Below, in pieces: positions 30,837 to 36,394 of a stretch of DNA of 41,069 nucleotides. The first letter of the stretch is position 1; every line of letters starts with the position of its first letter. The notes under the pieces were generated by a model. It was not told where the DNA came from and ran no database searches. It was given only the letters and a program-made list of their open reading frames with translations. Location of the stretch: the IMG/VR virus record IMGVR_UViG_2737471864_000010, positions 1-41,069 of that record; one strand, 5' to 3'. Source of the stretch: a virus (taxonomy: Duplodnaviria > Heunggongvirae > Uroviricota > Caudoviricetes). The position numbers were made by a program, and so were the translations under genes.

Positions 30837-32717
30837 TTAATACTCCGTCACGTTTTCCTGTCGCCACGCCTCGTCATATTCCGATTTCGGCATATTGGCG
30901 ATGTAGCTATATGGCGATCCTGATTCAAGTTGCAGGAACTGGTGCGATTGCTCGTCAAGGAACAACGGGACACCACCCTCCCAACCTTCGCCGTTACGTT
31001 GTTTTTCAAGCATCAAAACAGATGCCGGAGATGCCAGTAGCTGTTCGTCCTTCTCTGACATCTTTTCACCACTCTGAACTCTCTGTAACGCTCTCTCGCG
31101 AGCCTTGTTACGCCAGATGATGAAAAGGTTGTCTGTCAGGTCTGTTATCGCTCCAGAGCCTTTTACGTCCATTTTCCCGGTTGGTTTTTCTTCGCTGTCT
31201 CCTTTTCGCGAGTGAGTAACGAGAATGACGTGGGAGTTTGTTTTGTTTTTGAAGTCGCAAATCGAGTCAACAAACGCCTTCTGCCCGTTATAGTCATCGT
31301 CGCCTATGCCACATTTCATCAGGCTGTCGATGATGAATAACTGGATCCCGTATCGGCGGCGAGCGTAGTCGAATATTTCGATCAGCCTGTCGGCTTTCGC
31401 CGTTCCGGTCAGGCCAAACACCCAAAGTCTTTCGTCATAAAATTTAAATGCAGAGTCAATTTCCAGCACTGGCGGCATCTTGCAGCACGTCGCCTGACGG
31501 GTAAGTCGCTTAAGGAGAATGCCTGGCTTCAGCTCAAGTGACGCGATGCACGTCTTCACACCCTGACGCATTGCCTCAAGTGCCATATGCCCGACAACCT
31601 CCGTTTTTCCGTGACCGTTCACACCATTGACCAGCGTCAACTCTGCCTCACGGAACTGGAATTTATCTGCCAGAGATTCCCACGGTGGATTAAACAGATA
31701 CTGCTGCTTGCCGTAGAAAGCGTTGATAGTGTCCTGGTAAAACTCTCGCGCACTGTAGAGTTCTTCAGGATCGAAGTAGGATGCCGTGCCGATGTACTGC
31801 CAGATTTCATCCTCGGTAACACCGTTCATCAGGCATTCGTTGATGTCTTTGTACGGCAGAGTAACAAGACGGCAACGATGTTCACCGAGTCGGCTTGCGA
31901 TTTCCCTTGCGGCTTCACGACCAACATCATCAACATCCATCGAGATGAATATTTCCTCAAACCTGTCGAGGTTGTGATACTCAAACTCAATCCACTGTTG
32001 CTTAGCGCCTTTCCCGCCACCAAACGGCACGGATAACGCCGAGATGCCGTATTGCGCATAGCTCATACAATCAATTTCGCCTTCGCAAAGTACAACCGCC
32101 CTCACGCCAGCGTCCAGAGCCTGCCATCCGAACAGACAAGGTTCGCAATCACCTTCTGCCATAATGACTTTCTTCCCGTCCGGGCGCTCAGTGCTGATTC
32201 GCTTGACCTGCAACAACTCACCATCGCGTTTGTACGGAAGCACCAGAGCATCCAGTTCCCGCTCTCCATTCCACACCTTGCCGCTGACAACCTCGTAGCG
32301 CTTTACGATTTCTGGCGATATGCCACGCGATTGCAGGTACTCAAGATGGGATTCTGTTCTGGTAACGTAGCGGGAGATTTTCTTGCGATCAGGTCTGGAG
32401 AATTTCTTCTCACGTTTGGCATCGAAATGGTGATCGTCATCCTTGATACCGAGAAATGCTTTCGCTTCCTGCATAGCCTGATGCAGGTTAATTCCTCGAC
32501 ATGCCATCCACAAATCAAGCATGTCACCGCCGTCTCCCTCAGCGAAATCAGCCCATTTTTTCTTGCCGCTAAGGTTGACCTTAAGGCTGTTTCCCTTGTC
32601 ACCGTTGACGTTACCGGCAACCCACTCATGCCCCTCTTTCTTGCCGTTTGGCAACAGGTGCGGAGCCACCCTGTCAACCTGCGCCCAAAGCAGGTCGCTG
32701 AGTTCACTTGGCCTCAT
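30837..32717 (-). CDS. Bifunctional DNA primase-helicase (Toprim primase domain plus SF4 DnaB/gp4-like helicase domain)
   Basis: 626 aa; central acidic Toprim-like region (…VVLCEGEIDCMSYAQ…DVDDVGREAA…); Walker A GVNGHGKT and Walker B-like LFIIDSL in the C-terminal half. Confidence 0.8.
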   Translation of the reverse strand: MRPSELSDLLWAQVDRVAPHLLPNGKKEGHEWVAGNVNGDKGNSLKVNLSGKKKWADFAEGDGGDMLDLWMACRGINLHQAMQEAKAFLGIKDDDHHFDAKREKKFSRPDRKKISRYVTRTESHLEYLQSRGISPEIVKRYEVVSGKVWNGERELDALVLPYKRDGELLQVKRISTERPDGKKVIMAEGDCEPCLFGWQALDAGVRAVVLCEGEIDCMSYAQYGISALSVPFGGGKGAKQQWIEFEYHNLDRFEEIFISMDVDDVGREAAREIASRLGEHRCRLVTLPYKDINECLMNGVTEDEIWQYIGTASYFDPEELYSAREFYQDTINAFYGKQQYLFNPPWESLADKFQFREAELTLVNGVNGHGKTEVVGHMALEAMRQGVKTCIASLELKPGILLKRLTRQATCCKMPPVLEIDSAFKFYDERLWVFGLTGTAKADRLIEIFDYARRRYGIQLFIIDSLMKCGIGDDDYNGQKAFVDSICDFKNKTNSHVILVTHSRKGDSEEKPTGKMDVKGSGAITDLTDNLFIIWRNKARERALQRVQSGEKMSEKDEQLLASPASVLMLEKQRNGEGWEGGVPLFLDEQSHQFLQLESGSPYSYIANMPKSEYDEAWRQENVTEY

Positions 32718-32824: not shown

Positions 32825-33685
32825 TCACCTGTCGAAAAACACGTAGCCAGTTTTCGATACGGTGATTGCGGATGATGGTTTGGATTGTGGTTGAATGGTT
32901 TCTGGCTTTTCGTCGTTCCAGCGCTGACCGTTCAGGTAGCTCGATGGTAACAACCTGTCGAATCCGAACTGCTTACCATTCCTGCATGCGATGTCTTCTG
33001 CCAGCATCGTGGCAAACTCTCTTGCCGTACCCCTGGTAGTTTTACGCCATTCCCTGAACTGTGTTCTGAATGCCGAAGCTGCGTTTTTCTTCCCGGCTTT
33101 CCGCATGCCTGCACACCAGAATATTTCCTCGAATGCCTTGTCGGTTTCTTCGTGACGGTCAGATGATTTTTCACACTCCGTCCGAACACTTTCGGACATA
33201 GTGTTTTTATTATTTCTTTTTTCTTTTGTAATAGTTTCTTTTGTGTGTCCCTGTTTTGGTGACAGCGCTGTCACCGTTTTGGTGACACTTTTTGTCACCA
33301 ATGCAGTGACATTATCACCAGAGTAGTGACACCCTTCGATTTGCCATTCTTCGATGTTCTTGTTAGGCCCGATTTGCTGGCCTTCGCGAAGGATAACCTT
33401 CATCGCGATAAGCTCATTCTTGGCCTTGTTTACCTTCTGTCTTGGCAGCCTGGTAATTTGAGCTAACTGACTATCAGAGATGCGATCCATCTTTTTACCG
33501 TAGCCGTATGTTTTACGGCATATGGCGTGGGCAACCTTGCTCTGATTTTTCGTTAAATCTGCGCCGATAAGCTCTTCATACAGGGCATTTGCAAGACGGG
33601 TATAACCATCTTCAACTTCTGCCACACGACGCTCCACAGGCCGTTGTGAAGGCCTTAAATGTGTTACGGTTGCAAGATTACTCAT
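32825..33685 (-). CDS. Replication initiator with lambda O-like N-terminal origin-binding domain
   Basis: 286 aa; N-terminus …[56 protein letters not shown]… parallels lambda O; iteron-like repeats lie inside the coding sequence. Confidence 0.75.
33258..33334. repeat. Origin-like iteron array inside the initiator gene, followed by an AT-rich tract
   Basis: Reiterated GGTGACA/TGTCACC-type inverted repeats at roughly 20-bp spacing; AT-rich run at about 33205-33250 on the side toward the initiator C-terminus. Confidence 0.65.
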
Positions 33686-33856
33686 GACCTTTCTCCTTCT
33701 GCATCAGCTTCACTTTTTCCAACTCAGCCCGGAATCGACCAGGCTGCTTGAAGCTGGACAGGAAGCGATCACGTAGTATGTGTTTGTGAATTTTGTCCTG
33801 GTAAGGACTGAGTTGTTTTGTCATAATTACTCCCGTGGATTGATCCAGTAATTCCC

Positions 33857-34153
33857 TCAGAATTGCATATCAATTTGCTTAAAATCCTCGGTGGCGGCCG
33901 GGGATTTTTTCTTTGTGAGTCCATCAAGCGCATACTTAAAAGCCCTGCTAATCGGACTGATGTCTGATGCCATTCCGAAAGCACACAAGACCGAAGCAAT
34001 AAATCTCCAGTCCGTTCTGCTTATCTTCGATTCATGACAGCCAATCATCTTTGCCAGACCGCGCTGGGTAAGCGTTGACAGGTTGATGAGTAAATCAGTT
34101 TCAGCGCGATCAATTTCTCGCTGTGTTGGCTTGCTGTAACTTGTTTGTGTCAT
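33857..34153 (-). CDS. cII: CII-like transcriptional activator
   Basis: 98 aa; helix-turn-helix [15 protein letters not shown] and C-terminal [18 protein letters not shown] parallel lambda CII. Confidence 0.7.
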
Positions 34154-34274
34154 TTCTTACTATCTCCATAGGTAAATAATTTGGGTTTTTATCGTGCACC
34201 ATTGACAGTCATCCTTGACCACGCCGGGCACCCGACCGTATACCGGGCCGTTCGGTACTAAAAGTACATTTTTA

Positions 34275-34505
34275 TTACATAACAAACTGCTGTTTACCGA
34301 TACGGCGAATCTGTGCTGCTGAGTACTTGCCGCCTGATGCCTTGGCGATCTTATCCGCATATTCGGTTTCACCAGTGAACTCGGTACGCGGCAGAGAACC
34401 ACGCTCAAGCCACTTATAGATGGCTTTTGGCGTAAGTCCACAAACATCAGCCACAACAGAAACTCGAACGGATTTGATAACTTCTCCAAACGTAACTTCG
34501 TTCAT
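34275..34505 (-). CDS. cro: Cro-like helix-turn-helix repressor
   Basis: 76 aa, divergent from cI, AGGAGA site 6 nt upstream; helix-turn-helix VADVCGLTPKAIYKWLERG. Confidence 0.6.
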   Translation of the reverse strand: MNEVTFGEVIKSVRVSVVADVCGLTPKAIYKWLERGSLPRTEFTGETEYADKIAKASGGKYSAAQIRRIGKQQFVM

Positions 34506-34520
34506 GCTTCTCTCCTGCGG

Positions 34521-34592
34521 TGAACTTATGGTTCATATTATGACGGAACTGATAGTACAGTCAATACCTAATATAGTTGAACTTATGGTTCA
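34521..34592. promoter_or_regulatory. Immunity control region: two copies of a 15-bp operator palindrome TGAACTTATGGTTCA, PR for cro, and PRM-like promoter for cI
   Basis: Operator copies at about 34521-34535 and 34578-34592; minus-strand PR -35 TTGACT and -10 ATAATA with a 17-bp spacer; plus-strand TAATAT 10 nt before the cI ATG. Confidence 0.6.
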
Positions 34593-35292
34593 ACAGAAAG
34601 AGCGTGAAACTTTCTCGCAGAGGCTTGCGCTGGCCTGTGATAAAGCGGGATTACCTTTGCATGGTAGGCAGGCTGATTTAGCTGTCAGGCTTAAGGTCAC
34701 ACCAAAAGCCATTAGTAAATGGTTCAACGGGGAGTCAATACCAAGAAAAGACAAGATGGAATCTCTGGCTTCGGTGCTGGGAACTACTGCTGCATATCTG
34801 CATGGCTATGCTGATGATGACGGTATCACGGTAAATCATCTATCAAGATCAAATGATTATTATCGTGTTGATGTATTGGATGTTCAGGCGAGCGCCGGGC
34901 CAGGAACCATGGTTTCCAATGAATTTATAGAAAAGATAAGAGCAATTGAATATACGACCGAGCAGGCAAGAATTTTATTTAATGGAAGGCCACAGGAAAG
35001 CGTAAAAGTCATCACGGTTCGCGGTGACAGCATGGAGGGAACCATCAATCCGGGAGATGAGATCTTTGTTGATGTATCCATAACCTGTTTTGATGGCGAT
35101 GGCATTTATGTGTTTGTATACGGGAAAACAATGCACGTTAAGCGCCTGCAAATGCAAAAGAACAGGCTTGCCGTCATCTCTGACAATGCCGCTTATGATC
35201 GATGGTACATAGAAGAAGGTGAAGAAGAGCAACTTCACATTCTAGCCAAAGTCCTCATTAGGCAGTCAATCGATTACAAGCGATTCGGATAA
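34585..35292 (+). CDS. cI: CI-type prophage repressor (N-terminal helix-turn-helix, C-terminal S24 LexA-like autopeptidase domain)
   Basis: Track ORF 34420..35292 trimmed to the ATG at 34585 because the longer form overlaps cro and the promoter; helix-turn-helix QADLAVRLKVTPKAISKWFNG; S24 Ser motif VRGDSMEG and Lys in GKTMHVKRLQ. Confidence 0.85.
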   Translation: MVQQKERETFSQRLALACDKAGLPLHGRQADLAVRLKVTPKAISKWFNGESIPRKDKMESLASVLGTTAAYLHGYADDDGITVNHLSRSNDYYRVDVLDVQASAGPGTMVSNEFIEKIRAIEYTTEQARILFNGRPQESVKVITVRGDSMEGTINPGDEIFVDVSITCFDGDGIYVFVYGKTMHVKRLQMQKNRLAVISDNAAYDRWYIEEGEEEQLHILAKVLIRQSIDYKRFG

Positions 35293-35307
35293 AAATAAAT
35301 TTCCTTA

Positions 35308-35342
35308 AAGTTCACTAACTTATGATGTAGTGAGCTTTTTAT
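35308..35342 (+). terminator. Candidate intrinsic terminator just downstream of cI
   Basis: 10-bp stem AAGTTCACTA/TAGTGAGCTT with a 10-nt loop, followed by TTTTTATA. Confidence 0.4.
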
Positions 35343-35644
35343 ACCCATAAAATGTACTATTGGTACTTTACATTAATGAACTTTAAGTACATCATAAGCC
35401 CATAGACGAACGGCGCGTCTTTAAACCATGCGTCGGGAGCGCGGCGGGTTCAGGATGAACGGCAATGCTGCTCATTAGCGAGAAGGCTTTTTTGCTTTTA
35501 GTCACAAAAAGCAAAGCAGCTTTTTGATATAGAAGTCGTTCGAAAAAATAGAAGTATTTATTGCAAAGATTCAAACCCATTAGGAAACAAAATACATGCA
35601 GTCCAAAAAATAAAATTGTACAGTAAACTACCGTACGGTGCTTA

Positions 35645-35989
35645 TTGGGTATGCTTATGGTGAAAAAGACTATTTATGTTAATCCTGACAGCGGACAAAA
35701 CAGAAAAGTATCTGATAGAGGTCTTACATCTCGAGACAGGAGGAGAATAGCGAGATGGGAAAAAAGGATAGCATATGCATTAAAAAACGGTGTAACACCT
35801 GGATTTAATGCTATAGATGACGGTCCTGAATATAAGATTAATGAAGAACCAATGGACAAAGTTGACAAAGCATTAGCAACACCATTTCCTCGCGATGTCG
35901 AAAAAATTGAAGATGAAAAATATGAGGATGTAATGCACAGAGTTGTTAATCACGCTCACCAACGAAATCCAAATAAAAAATGGTCATAG
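35645..35989 (+). CDS. Candidate N-like transcription antiterminator (arginine-rich motif protein); true start uncertain
   Basis: First gene of the early-left operon; arginine-rich segment TSRDRRRIARWEKRIAYA; followed immediately by a strong intrinsic terminator and more same-strand genes. No sequence match to known N proteins recognised. Confidence 0.35.
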   Translation: MGMLMVKKTIYVNPDSGQNRKVSDRGLTSRDRRRIARWEKRIAYALKNGVTPGFNAIDDGPEYKINEEPMDKVDKALATPFPRDVEKIEDEKYEDVMHRVVNHAHQRNPNKKWS

Positions 35990-36012
35990 CCCACTTCGGT
36001 GGGTTTTTTTGT
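35990..36012 (+). terminator. Intrinsic terminator (tL1-like) immediately after the N-like gene
   Basis: CCCAC-TTCG-GTGGG followed by TTTTTTTG. Confidence 0.8.
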
Positions 36013-36193
36013 TGTCTGAACAAACCTAATTTACTACCGCAAGCCACGCAGTGAAATGGGCGTGACTTGTGTTGGTCGCCAGAAAATGAAATTAGGCAGC
36101 AAACCACTTATTTGAGGTGATATATGGAAGAAGAATTTGAAGAGTTCGAAGAGCATCCGCAGGATGTGATGGAACAATACCAGGACTATCCGT

Positions 36194-36394
36194 ATGACTA
36201 CGACTATTGATAAGAATCAATGGTGTGGACAATTCAAACGATGCAATGGATGCAAGCTGCAATCGGAATGCATGGTTAAGCCTGAAGAAATGTTTCCTGT
36301 AATGGAAGATGGGAAATATGTCGATAAATGGGCAATACGAACGACGGCAATGATTGCCAGAGAACTTGGTAAACAGAATAACAAGGCTGCCTGA
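36194..36394 (+). CDS. ral: Ral-like restriction-alleviation protein
   Basis: 66 aa MTTTIDKNQWCGQFKRCNGCKLQSECMV…, at the position lambda carries ral; identity is from memory and not verified. Confidence 0.5.
   Translation: MTTTIDKNQWCGQFKRCNGCKLQSECMVKPEEMFPVMEDGKYVDKWAIRTTAMIARELGKQNNKAA

What the first reader, a model, noticed from the sequence alone, without database searches (positions are those of the whole stretch)
34505..34600. Compact cI/cro switch with only two clear 15-bp operators and a near-leaderless cI
The cro ATG and the chosen cI ATG are only about 80 bp apart. Two identical palindromes TGAACTTATGGTTCA lie here; each contains an in-frame ATG on the cI strand, the second being the proposed cI start. 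A strong PR (TTGACT, 17 bp, ATAATA) drives cro with one operator at its start site, and a weak PRM-like -10 (TAATAT) sits 10 nt before the cI ATG, implying a leaderless or near-leaderless cI mRNA as in lambda. A third operator is not obvious.
Basis: seen in the sequence. Interest (0 to 1): 0.4.

Follow-up and report, generated by a model that had tools for sequence, protein, structure and literature searches.

The report
Known HK022 phage cI/cro switch
This is the well-studied lysis/lysogeny switch of coliphage HK022, sitting in a P22-like mosaic phage; it has three repressor-binding sites rather than two, so it is ordinary and already described.

Summary
Two identical 15-mers, TGAACTTATGGTTCA, lie at 34521-35 and 34578-92. 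The cro and cI start codons face away from each other with 79 bp between them. PR has a strong TTGACT -35. No Shine-Dalgarno sequence precedes the cI ATG, which lies inside the second 15-mer.

The region is the immunity region of coliphage HK022: 99.3% identical over 2.2 kb, and the cro-cI intergenic DNA differs by one base. The "missing" third operator is OR2, GGAACTGATAGTACA at 34545-59. It has been annotated since 1989. I confirmed it by comparing 54 loci with related repressors: the half-sites of all three sites are nearly invariant, and a Rahnella relative has changed all three together to TTAAC..GTTAA.

The true half-site is TG(A/T)AC. The same motif marks OFR (34254-68), OL2 (35353-67) and OL1 (35377-91).

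Transcription would then start at or 1 nt before the cI ATG, giving a leaderless mRNA as in lambda. This is predicted, not shown.

The ATG inside OR1 survives in only 4 of 28 distinct relatives, so it is incidental.

Verdict: already known, low interest. The one point that may be under-described is that OR2's invariant centre coincides with the predicted PRM -35.

The parts
34254..34268 (.). OFR, a distal repressor operator (GGTACTAAAAGTACA) between cro and putR/cII, 267 bp centre-to-centre from OR1
   Evidence: TGWACN5GTWCA with 1 mismatch. Annotated as OFR in HK75 at the aligned position. Found in 47 of 52 distinct loci at offsets -332 to -329 from the cI ATG. The literature describes a CI operator about 300 bp downstream of OR that is involved in immunity (PMC8053113 citing Carlson & Little 1993).
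34275..34505 (-). cro gene (76 aa)
   Evidence: ORF. Annotated as cro in the HK022 records X16093 and U02466. Matches PHROG 35, transcriptional repressor, E 1.6e-12. Shares the recognition-helix segment TPKAI.KW with CI.
34510..34516 (-). cro Shine-Dalgarno sequence (AGGAGAG on the minus strand)
   Evidence: Read from the sequence. RBS annotated in X16093 at the equivalent of 34512-16.
34521..34535 (.). OR1 operator TGAACTTATGGTTCA, over the predicted PR start site
   Evidence: Exact consensus. Annotated as an oR site in X16093 and as oR1 in HK75. Half-sites are invariant and the centre is free, with 10 variants, in related loci.
34537..34542 (-).
   Evidence: Promoter scan gives TTGACT-16-CATAAT, 10 of 12 matches. 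Annotated in X16093 and O276. Conserved in 25-28 of 28 relatives.
34545..34559 (.).
   Evidence: One mismatch to TGWACN5GTWCA. Annotated in X16093 and HK75. Present at offset -40 in 51 of 52 distinct loci. Changes to TTAACTGAAAGTTAT together with OR1 and OR3 in Rahnella locus L073.
34549..34554 (+). Predicted PRM -35 (CTGATA), coinciding with the centre of OR2
   Evidence: Promoter scan gives CTGATA-17-TATAGT, 9 of 12 matches. The OR2 centre is TGA[A/T]A in all 54 loci, whereas the centres of OL1, OR1 and OL2 show 12, 10 and 9 variants in the same loci. Its function is inferred.
34559..34564 (-). PR -35 (TTGACT on the minus strand)
   Evidence: Conserved in 26-28 of 28 relatives.
34572..34577 (+). 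Predicted PRM -10 (TATAGT), 7 nt before the cI ATG
   Evidence: Promoter scan. T, A, T and the final T are kept in 26-28 of 28 distinct relatives, while 34565-34570 is variable. Hao et al. label a 'PM -10' in this stretch.
34578..34592 (.). OR3 operator TGAACTTATGGTTCA, centred on the cI ATG and predicted PRM start
   Evidence: Exact consensus. Annotated in X16093 and HK75. Present at offset -7 in 52 of 52 distinct loci.
34585..35292 (+). cI repressor gene (235 aa): HTH domain plus S24 self-cleaving peptidase domain
   Evidence: Pfam HTH_3 (2.4e-9) and Peptidase_S24 (2.6e-19). PHROG 4. Annotated cI CDS start in X16093, O276 and HK75. The ATG is kept in 28 of 28 relatives. An Ala-Gly site (QASAGPG), GDSM and VKRL motifs are visible in the translation.
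35307..35338 (+). Hairpin followed by a T-run just after the cI stop, possibly the cI terminator; it overlaps both candidate OL3 sites
   Evidence: RNA fold -11.6 kcal/mol, z = -4.0. Its role is not established.
35300..35314 (.). Candidate OL3 (TTTCCTTAAAGTTCA), 53 bp centre-to-centre from OL2; assignment uncertain
   Evidence: Matches the reverse complement of OL1 in 13 of 15 positions. The right half GTTCA is conserved. The literature mentions 53 bp between OL2 and OL3. The HK75 record instead marks the equivalent of 35331-45.
35353..35367 (.). OL2 operator TGTACTATTGGTACT
   Evidence: Half-sites are invariant and the centre is free in 46 loci.
35377..35391 (.). OL1 operator TGAACTTTAAGTACA, in the PL spacer
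   Evidence: Half-sites are invariant, with 12 centre variants in 46 loci.
35367..35395 (+). PL promoter (TTTACA-17-CATCAT)
   Evidence: Promoter scan. Annotated in X16093 and O276.

Best explanation
The finding is the right operator region (OR) of the coliphage HK022 immunity module, carried here by a P22-like mosaic phage or prophage.

Three 15-bp operators with half-site TG(A/T)AC lie in the 79-bp gap between the divergent cro and cI genes: OR1 at 34521-35, OR2 at 34545-59 and OR3 at 34578-92. Centre-to-centre spacings are 24 bp and 33 bp.

CI is an HTH repressor with a LexA-like self-cleaving domain. It fills OR1 and the intrinsically poor OR2 together through very strong dimer-dimer cooperativity. 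OR1 covers the PR start and OR2 covers the PR spacer and the edge of its -35, so cro and the lytic genes are shut off. At higher concentration CI fills OR3, which sits on the start of PRM and of cI, and so limits its own synthesis.

PRM (CTGATA-17-TATAGT) is predicted to start at or 1 nt before the cI AUG. The maintenance mRNA would then be leaderless, as in lambda. A cII-dependent promoter about 430 bp upstream should give a long-leader cI mRNA during establishment.

Cro shares CI's recognition-helix sequence and is expected to read the same sites.

Further operators add to repression and allow OL-OR looping: OFR 267 bp downstream of OR1, and OL1, OL2 and probably OL3 beyond cI.

Shown here: sequence identity with HK022, the three conserved and co-varying sites, and the conserved promoter elements. 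Taken from the literature: binding, cooperativity and looping. Inferred: the PRM start point, leaderless translation, and the effect of OR2-bound CI on PRM.
For: Identity: 99.3% to HK022 over 2.2 kb that includes cII, cro, cI and nun. The OR DNA is identical to HK022, O276 and HK75 except for base 34518, which lies outside all sites.

Annotation: X16093 lists three oR sites, PR, the cI start inside the third site, two oL sites and pE. HK75 lists OFR, oR1-3 and oL1-3.

Statistics: TGWACN5GTWCA gives 16 hits against 4.0 expected, and 7 of them cluster in 1.1 kb.

Comparative footprint: in 28 distinct upstream regions the half-sites of all three operators, PR -35 and -10, and T-A-T-n-n-T at 34572-77 are nearly invariant, while 34565-70 and the OR1 centre vary. 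Sites recur at fixed offsets -331, -64, -40, -7, +768 and +792 in 52 distinct loci.

Co-variation: Rahnella locus L073 has a 55%-identical repressor with a different HTH. It carries TTAACN5GTTAA at -63, -39 and -7.

Proteins: CI has HTH_3 plus Peptidase_S24. Cro and CI share TPKAI.KW....S.PR.

Literature: CI binds cooperatively to adjacent operators in OR and OL; there is an extra operator about 300 bp downstream of OR; OL-OR looping has been demonstrated (PMC8053113). The cooperativity factor is about 2000 (PMC7498355). A 'PM -10' label sits directly upstream of ATGGTTCAACAG.
Against: No transcript 5' end or binding data could be examined here, because the primary papers (Carlson & Little 1993, J Mol Biol and J Bacteriol; Oberto et al. 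1989) are not in the library.

The PRM start is only a prediction. In one clade the -10 reads TATGCT, and other overlapping hexamers are conceivable.

OR2 is centred at about -33 of the predicted PRM, on top of its -35. By the lambda precedent (-42) that would be expected to hinder rather than help PRM, so how PRM stays active in a lysogen is not explained by the sequence alone.

The related loci are not phylogenetically independent, so the counts overstate the number of independent observations.
Confidence: 0.9

Rival explanations
1. One reading: a minimal switch with only two operators (the two perfect 15-mers), one on PR and one on the cI start, with nothing functional between them.
For: Only two sites match the perfect TGAAC..GTTCA form. 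The middle site has two mismatches to that strict pattern.
Against: The middle site fits the real consensus TGWAC..GTWCA with one mismatch. It is annotated in HK022 and HK75. It is conserved in 51 of 52 distinct loci. It switches specificity together with the other two in L073. The reported cooperativity of about 2000 explains how a weak site can be filled.
Confidence: 0.03
2. cI is translated from an upstream in-frame ATG (34528 inside OR1, or 34540 inside the PR -10), giving a repressor 15-19 residues longer from a leadered mRNA.
For: The frame is open back to 34420. The ATG at 34540 is kept in 27 of 28 relatives. Transcripts from pE would contain these codons.
Against: The ATG at 34528 is kept in only 4 of 28 relatives. 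The ATG at 34540 is the complement of the PR -10, CATAAT, which explains its conservation. The frame stays open because the variable codons cannot form stops given the fixed bases. All database annotations and the expression construct of Hao et al. start at ATGGTTCAACAG. Neither upstream ATG has a Shine-Dalgarno sequence.
Confidence: 0.04
3. PRM uses the reader's -10 (TAATAT, 34569-74) and starts near 34581, giving a 3-4 nt leader rather than none.
For: TAATAT is a 4-of-6 match with the key A2 and T6, and the predicted start would be a purine.
Against: Its first three positions vary freely among relatives: TAATAT is kept in 7 of 28, and variants such as AGATAT, GGATAC and TTATAT lack the essential A2. 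The overlapping TATAGT frame keeps T-A-T-n-n-T in 27 of 28. The scan scores CTGATA-17-TATAGT instead.
Confidence: 0.15

Closest known systems
Coliphage HK022 OR/PR/PRM region (Oberto, Weisberg & Gottesman 1989, GenBank X16093; Carlson & Little 1993)
   Same: The sequence is essentially the same: 99.3% over cII-cro-cI-nun, and one base differs in the cro-cI intergenic DNA, outside the operators. It has the same three OR sites, OFR, OL sites, PR, PL and cI start.
   Different: The host genome differs. The rest of the window is a P22-like (CUS-3, Sf101, phiv205-1-like) phage, not the HK022 siphovirus. There is one substitution at 34518 (C for T).
Bacteriophage lambda OR (OR1-OR2-OR3, PR/PRM, leaderless cI mRNA)
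   Same: Divergent cI and cro genes. Three operators shared by two back-to-back promoters. Cooperative filling of OR1 and OR2. OR3 used for negative autoregulation. cI ATG with no Shine-Dalgarno sequence immediately after the PRM -10. A second operator cluster at PL and long-range looping. A LexA-like cleavable repressor.
   Different: Operators are 15 bp with 5-bp arms and a free 5-bp centre, against 17 bp in lambda. The whole set is shifted towards cro: OR1 sits on the PR start rather than in its spacer, OR2 sits in the PR spacer, and OR3 sits on the PRM start rather than on its -10/-35. Spacings are 24 and 33 bp, against 24 and 23. The intergenic gap is 79 bp, against about 100 (lambda coordinates are from my own knowledge). 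OR2 is centred near -33 of PRM rather than -42. There is an extra operator, OFR. OL lies about 0.8 kb from OR rather than 2.3 kb.
Lambda cII at PRE (activator half-sites flanking a -35 hexamer on the opposite DNA face)
   Same: Geometry only. The OR2 half-sites flank the predicted PRM -35 hexamer, much as the TTGC repeats flank the PRE -35.
   Different: A different protein family, and inverted rather than direct repeats. No evidence here that CI at OR2 activates PRM in this way. This is an analogy, not membership.

Membership tests
HK022-type lambdoid immunity region (immHK022) | Nucleotide identity with the HK022 cII-cro-cI-nun segment | tested here: met
   99.3% over 2207 bp to AF069308 and NC_002166. 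The OR alignment differs at one base, 34518.
HK022-type lambdoid immunity region (immHK022) | Three OR operators of consensus TGWAC-N5-GTWCA at the annotated positions | tested here: met
   34521-35, 34545-59 and 34578-92. Conserved at offsets -64, -40 and -7 in 51-52 of 52 loci.
HK022-type lambdoid immunity region (immHK022) | Additional operators OFR and OL1/OL2(/OL3) | tested here: met
   OFR 34254-68, OL2 35353-67 and OL1 35377-91. The position of OL3 remains ambiguous.
HK022-type lambdoid immunity region (immHK022) | Repressor physically binds these sites with high cooperativity and loops OL to OR | not testable with these tools
   Literature only: PMC8053113 and PMC7498355, both citing Carlson & Little 1993. 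The primary papers are not held.
Lambda-like CI repressors (HTH plus LexA/S24 autocleavage domain) | N-terminal HTH and C-terminal S24 peptidase domain with an Ala-Gly site and a Ser/Lys dyad | tested here: met
   Pfam HTH_3 2.4e-9 and Peptidase_S24 2.6e-19. The motifs QASAGPG, GDSM and VKRL are visible in the translation.
Lambda-like CI/Cro bistable switch | Divergent cro gene whose product reads the same operators | tested here: inconclusive
   cro is annotated and matches PHROG 35. It shares the recognition-helix segment with CI, 10 of 19 identical. Binding was not tested.
Leaderless cI mRNA from PRM (as in lambda) | Transcript 5' end at the A of the AUG and no Shine-Dalgarno sequence | tested here: inconclusive
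   No Shine-Dalgarno sequence is present. The conserved -10 TATAGT ends 7 nt before the ATG. The 'PM -10' label of Hao et al. falls in this stretch. No 5'-end data were available.

The most novel reading that the evidence does not exclude
OR2 may do two jobs at once. Its 5-bp centre, TGA(A/T)A, is invariant in all 54 related loci. It is kept even in the Rahnella relative whose half-sites changed. The centres of OL1, OR1 and OL2 drift freely in the same loci. With the preceding C, this centre forms the predicted PRM -35 (CTGAWA).

CI at OR2 would then be centred near -33 of PRM, contacting the two flanking major grooves on one face of the DNA. Sigma region 4 would read the central major groove from the opposite face. 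That resembles lambda cII at PRE rather than lambda CI at -42.

If so, HK022-type switches would couple PR repression and PRM control through a single shared 15-bp element, with a geometry not used by lambda, 434 or P22. Carlson & Little may already have addressed this, and I could not read those papers.
Probability: 0.12. Interest if true: 0.35.

Novelty: already known. Interest (0 to 1): 0.07.

Why it matters
It matters little for discovery. The region is a textbook-class phage switch characterised between 1989 and 1993, and its looping was studied again in 2021.

It is useful as calibration. The first-stage reader placed cro, cI, PR, two operators and the unusual cI start correctly from raw sequence. 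It missed the weak middle operator, which is exactly the kind of site that works only through protein-protein cooperativity.

The comparative set assembled here (54 loci, one with switched specificity) gives an independent, sequence-only confirmation of the three-operator layout. It also places the PRM -10 more precisely.

Tried and rejected
1. Strict palindrome search. TGAACN5GTTCA with up to 2 mismatches gave 26 hits against 21 expected, which is not informative. Relaxing the third base of each arm to W, as the annotated OL sites suggested, gave the significant clustering.

2. Close relatives as comparators. HK022, O276 and HK75 have identical OR DNA, so they say nothing about which positions matter. 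I replaced them with S9-5 and 63 loci from viral and genome collections.

3. Intragenic operator-like site. The site at 34872-86 (TGTATTGGATGTTCA, inside cI) stays within one mismatch in only 21 of 52 loci, against 51-52 of 52 for the real operators. I rejected it as a chance or coding by-product.

4. Upstream ATGs as cI starts. Rejected; see the rival explanations.

5. OL3. The HK75 annotation (equivalent to 35331-45) and the site 53 bp from OL2 (35300-14) each keep only one conserved half-site, and together they form a hairpin followed by a T-run. I could not decide between an operator, a terminator or both.

6. Rfam scan of 33500-36200 at E <= 1. No hits, so there is no curated family for putL or putR.

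7. Primary papers. Carlson & Little 1993 could not be fetched by PMC id or PubMed id. Several full-text searches returned only secondary citations.

Full report

Yes. The 15-mer TGAACTTATGGTTCA occurs exactly twice in the 41,069-bp window, at 34521-34535 and 34578-34592. The two copies are 57 nt (19 codons) apart, so the ATG inside each (34528 and 34585) is in the same frame. That frame runs into a 235-codon ORF ending at 35292.

On the other strand a 76-codon ORF (34275-34505) starts 79 bp from the second ATG. It is preceded by AGGAGAG.

TAATAT is at 34569-74.

**2. What is it?**

The segment 33800-36006 is 99.3% identical to the immunity region of coliphage HK022 (cII, cro, cI, nun). It is 99.1% identical to the HK022/lambda hybrid O276 and 95.9% to HK75.

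The cro-cI intergenic DNA is identical in all four except for one base, 34518 (C here, T elsewhere). That base lies between the cro ribosome-binding site and OR1.

The rest of the window is not HK022. Its left 25 kb matches P22-like podophages (CUS-3, phiv205-1, Sf101), and the early region is a mosaic. The window is therefore a P22-like phage or prophage carrying the HK022 immunity module. That module occurs in 10 of 5426 complete E. coli genomes.

**3. The third operator**

The 1989 HK022 record X16093 annotates three potential repressor-binding sites in OR. They map to window 34521-35, 34545-59 and 34578-92, with the cI CDS starting inside the third. The record also annotates two sites in OL (35353-67 and 35377-91). 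HK75's record names them oR1-3, oL1-3 and OFR.

The middle site, GGAACTGATAGTACA, and the OL sites (TGTACTATTGGTACT and TGAACTTTAAGTACA) show that the recognised half-site is TG(A/T)AC, not TGAAC.

With that consensus and at most one mismatch, the window has 16 hits against 4.0 +/- 1.9 expected, and 0 of 100 shuffles reach 16. Seven of the hits fall in the 1.1 kb from 34254 to 35391.

**4. Independent comparative test**

The close relatives are uninformative, so I collected loci encoding repressors 50-100% identical to this one from viral and genome collections, plus Salmonella phage S9-5. The upstream regions align to the cI ATG without gaps, except for one sequence whose OR1/OR2 region is shifted by one base. 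There are 28 distinct versions of positions -70 to +12.

- The half-sites of all three operators, the PR -35 and the PR -10 are invariant or nearly so (26-28 of 28).
- The 5-bp centre of OR1 has 10 variants.
- The stretch 34565-70 is free to vary.

Across 52 distinct loci, sites within one mismatch of the consensus recur at fixed offsets from the cI ATG:

| Offset from cI ATG | Site | Distinct loci with the site |
|---|---|---|
| about -331 | OFR | 47 of 52 (offsets -332 to -329) |
| -64 | OR1 | 51 of 52 |
| -40 | OR2 | 51 of 52 |
| -7 | OR3 | 52 of 52 |
| about +768 | OL2 | 42 (offsets 768-770) |
| about +792 | OL1 | 42 (offsets 792-794) |

The most divergent relative is Rahnella locus L073, whose repressor is 55% identical with a different helix-turn-helix. 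It has TTAACTACGAGTTAA, TTAACTGAAAGTTAT and TTAACGAATGGTTAA at -63, -39 and -7. This is a concerted change of half-site at all three positions. It is the strongest sequence-only evidence that all three positions are operators.

**5. The start of cI and PRM**

The ATG at 34585 is kept in 28 of 28 distinct relatives. The ATG inside OR1 is kept in only 4 of 28, so it is an accident of this operator's free centre.

A third in-frame ATG at 34540 is conserved, but it is simply the complement of the PR -10. No Shine-Dalgarno sequence precedes any of the three.

The scan finds CTGATA-17-TATAGT on the cI strand (34549..34577). TATAGT ends 7 nt before the ATG. Its T-A-T-n-n-T skeleton is kept in 27 of 28 relatives (TATAGT, TATGCT, TATGAT, TACAGT, TATATT); the exception is the single sequence whose upstream region is shifted by one base.

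Hao et al. (PMC8053113, supplement) clone HK022 cI with exactly this leader and label a 'PM -10' in it.

The PRM transcript is therefore predicted to begin at or one base before the AUG, making it leaderless as in lambda. This is a prediction, because I had no 5'-end data.

X16093 also annotates a cII-dependent pE about 430 bp upstream, inside cII. A long-leader cI mRNA is therefore expected during establishment and would not contradict the PRM model.

**6. How it most likely works**

CI has an HTH domain and an S24 (LexA-like) self-cleavage domain. The Ala-Gly, GDSM and VKRL motifs are visible in the translation.

According to papers that cite Carlson & Little 1993:

- CI binds cooperatively to adjacent operators in OR and OL.
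- Its dimer-dimer cooperativity is about 2000-fold, against about 100-fold for lambda.
- An operator about 300 bp downstream of OR contributes to immunity.
- CI loops OL to OR.

This explains why the imperfect OR2 suffices.

The geometry from the sequence is as follows. OR1 covers the PR start. OR2 fills the PR spacer and touches its -35. OR3 is centred on the PRM start and the cI ATG, so occupancy of OR3 should shut off cI.

Cro shares CI's recognition-helix segment (TPKAI.KW....S.PR, 10 of 19 identical) and presumably reads the same half-sites.

Compared with lambda, the operator set is shifted by about one site towards cro, and the two promoters are closer together.

**7. An unresolved point**

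OR2 is centred about 33 bp upstream of the predicted PRM start, directly over its -35, not at -42 as in lambda.

Its 5-bp centre is TGA(A/T)A in all 54 loci, and also in the Rahnella relative. In the same loci the centres of OL1 (which likewise sits in a lytic-promoter spacer), OR1 and OL2 have 12, 10 and 9 variants.

The simplest reading is that the OR2 centre is the PRM -35. CI would bind the flanking half-sites on the opposite DNA face, much as lambda cII does at PRE. This is an inference. It may already be treated in the primary papers, which I could not obtain.

**8. Verdict**

'Only two operators' is wrong, and the PRM -10 is placed three bases too far upstream.

This is an already known system. 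Interest is low.

Noticed in passing
window 1-41069: The window is not HK022 itself. It is a mosaic: P22-like morphogenesis genes (CUS-3, phiv205-1, Sf101-like, about 95% identical) joined to an HK022-type immunity region that includes nun.
   Followed up: partly
window 35651-35989 (+): The Nun transcription-termination factor gene is intact (PHROG 5632, E 1.8e-68; annotated in X16093 and O276). It is an exclusion function against lambda, carried here by a P22-like phage.
   Followed up: partly
window ~34193-34254 (-) and ~35411-35473 (+): The putR and putL antiterminator RNA sites of HK022 are present, by alignment to the O276 and HK75 annotations. Rfam 15 has no family that detects them, with no hit at E <= 1.
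   Followed up: partly
window 34410-34433 and 34699-34722: A 24-nt inverted repeat, 79% complementary, between cro and cI. It arises because both genes encode the same recognition-helix peptide, TPKAI(Y/S)KW.
   Followed up: yes
window 34872-34886: An operator-like site, TGTATTGGATGTTCA, inside the cI coding sequence. It stays within one mismatch in only 21 of 52 related loci, so it is probably not functional.
   Followed up: yes
window 35300-35345: The position of OL3 is ambiguous. 35300-14 resembles the reverse complement of OL1 (13 of 15) and lies 53 bp from OL2. HK75's record marks the equivalent of 35331-45. The two conserved half-sites also form a stable hairpin followed by a T-run (-11.6 kcal/mol, z = -4.0) that could terminate cI transcription.
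   Followed up: partly
window 34518: This is the single base that distinguishes the window's OR region from HK022, O276 and HK75 (C instead of T). It lies between the cro ribosome-binding site and OR1. C occurs in 1 of 28 distinct relatives.
   Followed up: partly
L073 (Rahnella sp. PCH160, NZ_JBLOGT010000001.1), offsets -63, -39 and -7 from the repressor ATG: A relative of this switch has the same three-site layout but TTAAC..GTTAA half-sites and a different HTH. It is a natural specificity switch, and it keeps the OR2 centre TGAAA.
   Followed up: partly
L069 (NZ_JBEOWA010000103.1, 1026-bp contig labelled Streptomyces sp. NPDC002677): This contig carries a 79%-identical enterobacterial-type repressor with the same OR sequence. 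It is most likely contamination of that assembly.
   Followed up: no
window 30837-32717 (-): The replication gene downstream of the O-like gene encodes a 626-aa primase/helicase-type protein. Related phages annotate it as DNA primase/helicase or toprim domain protein. It is not a lambda P-type loader.
   Followed up: no
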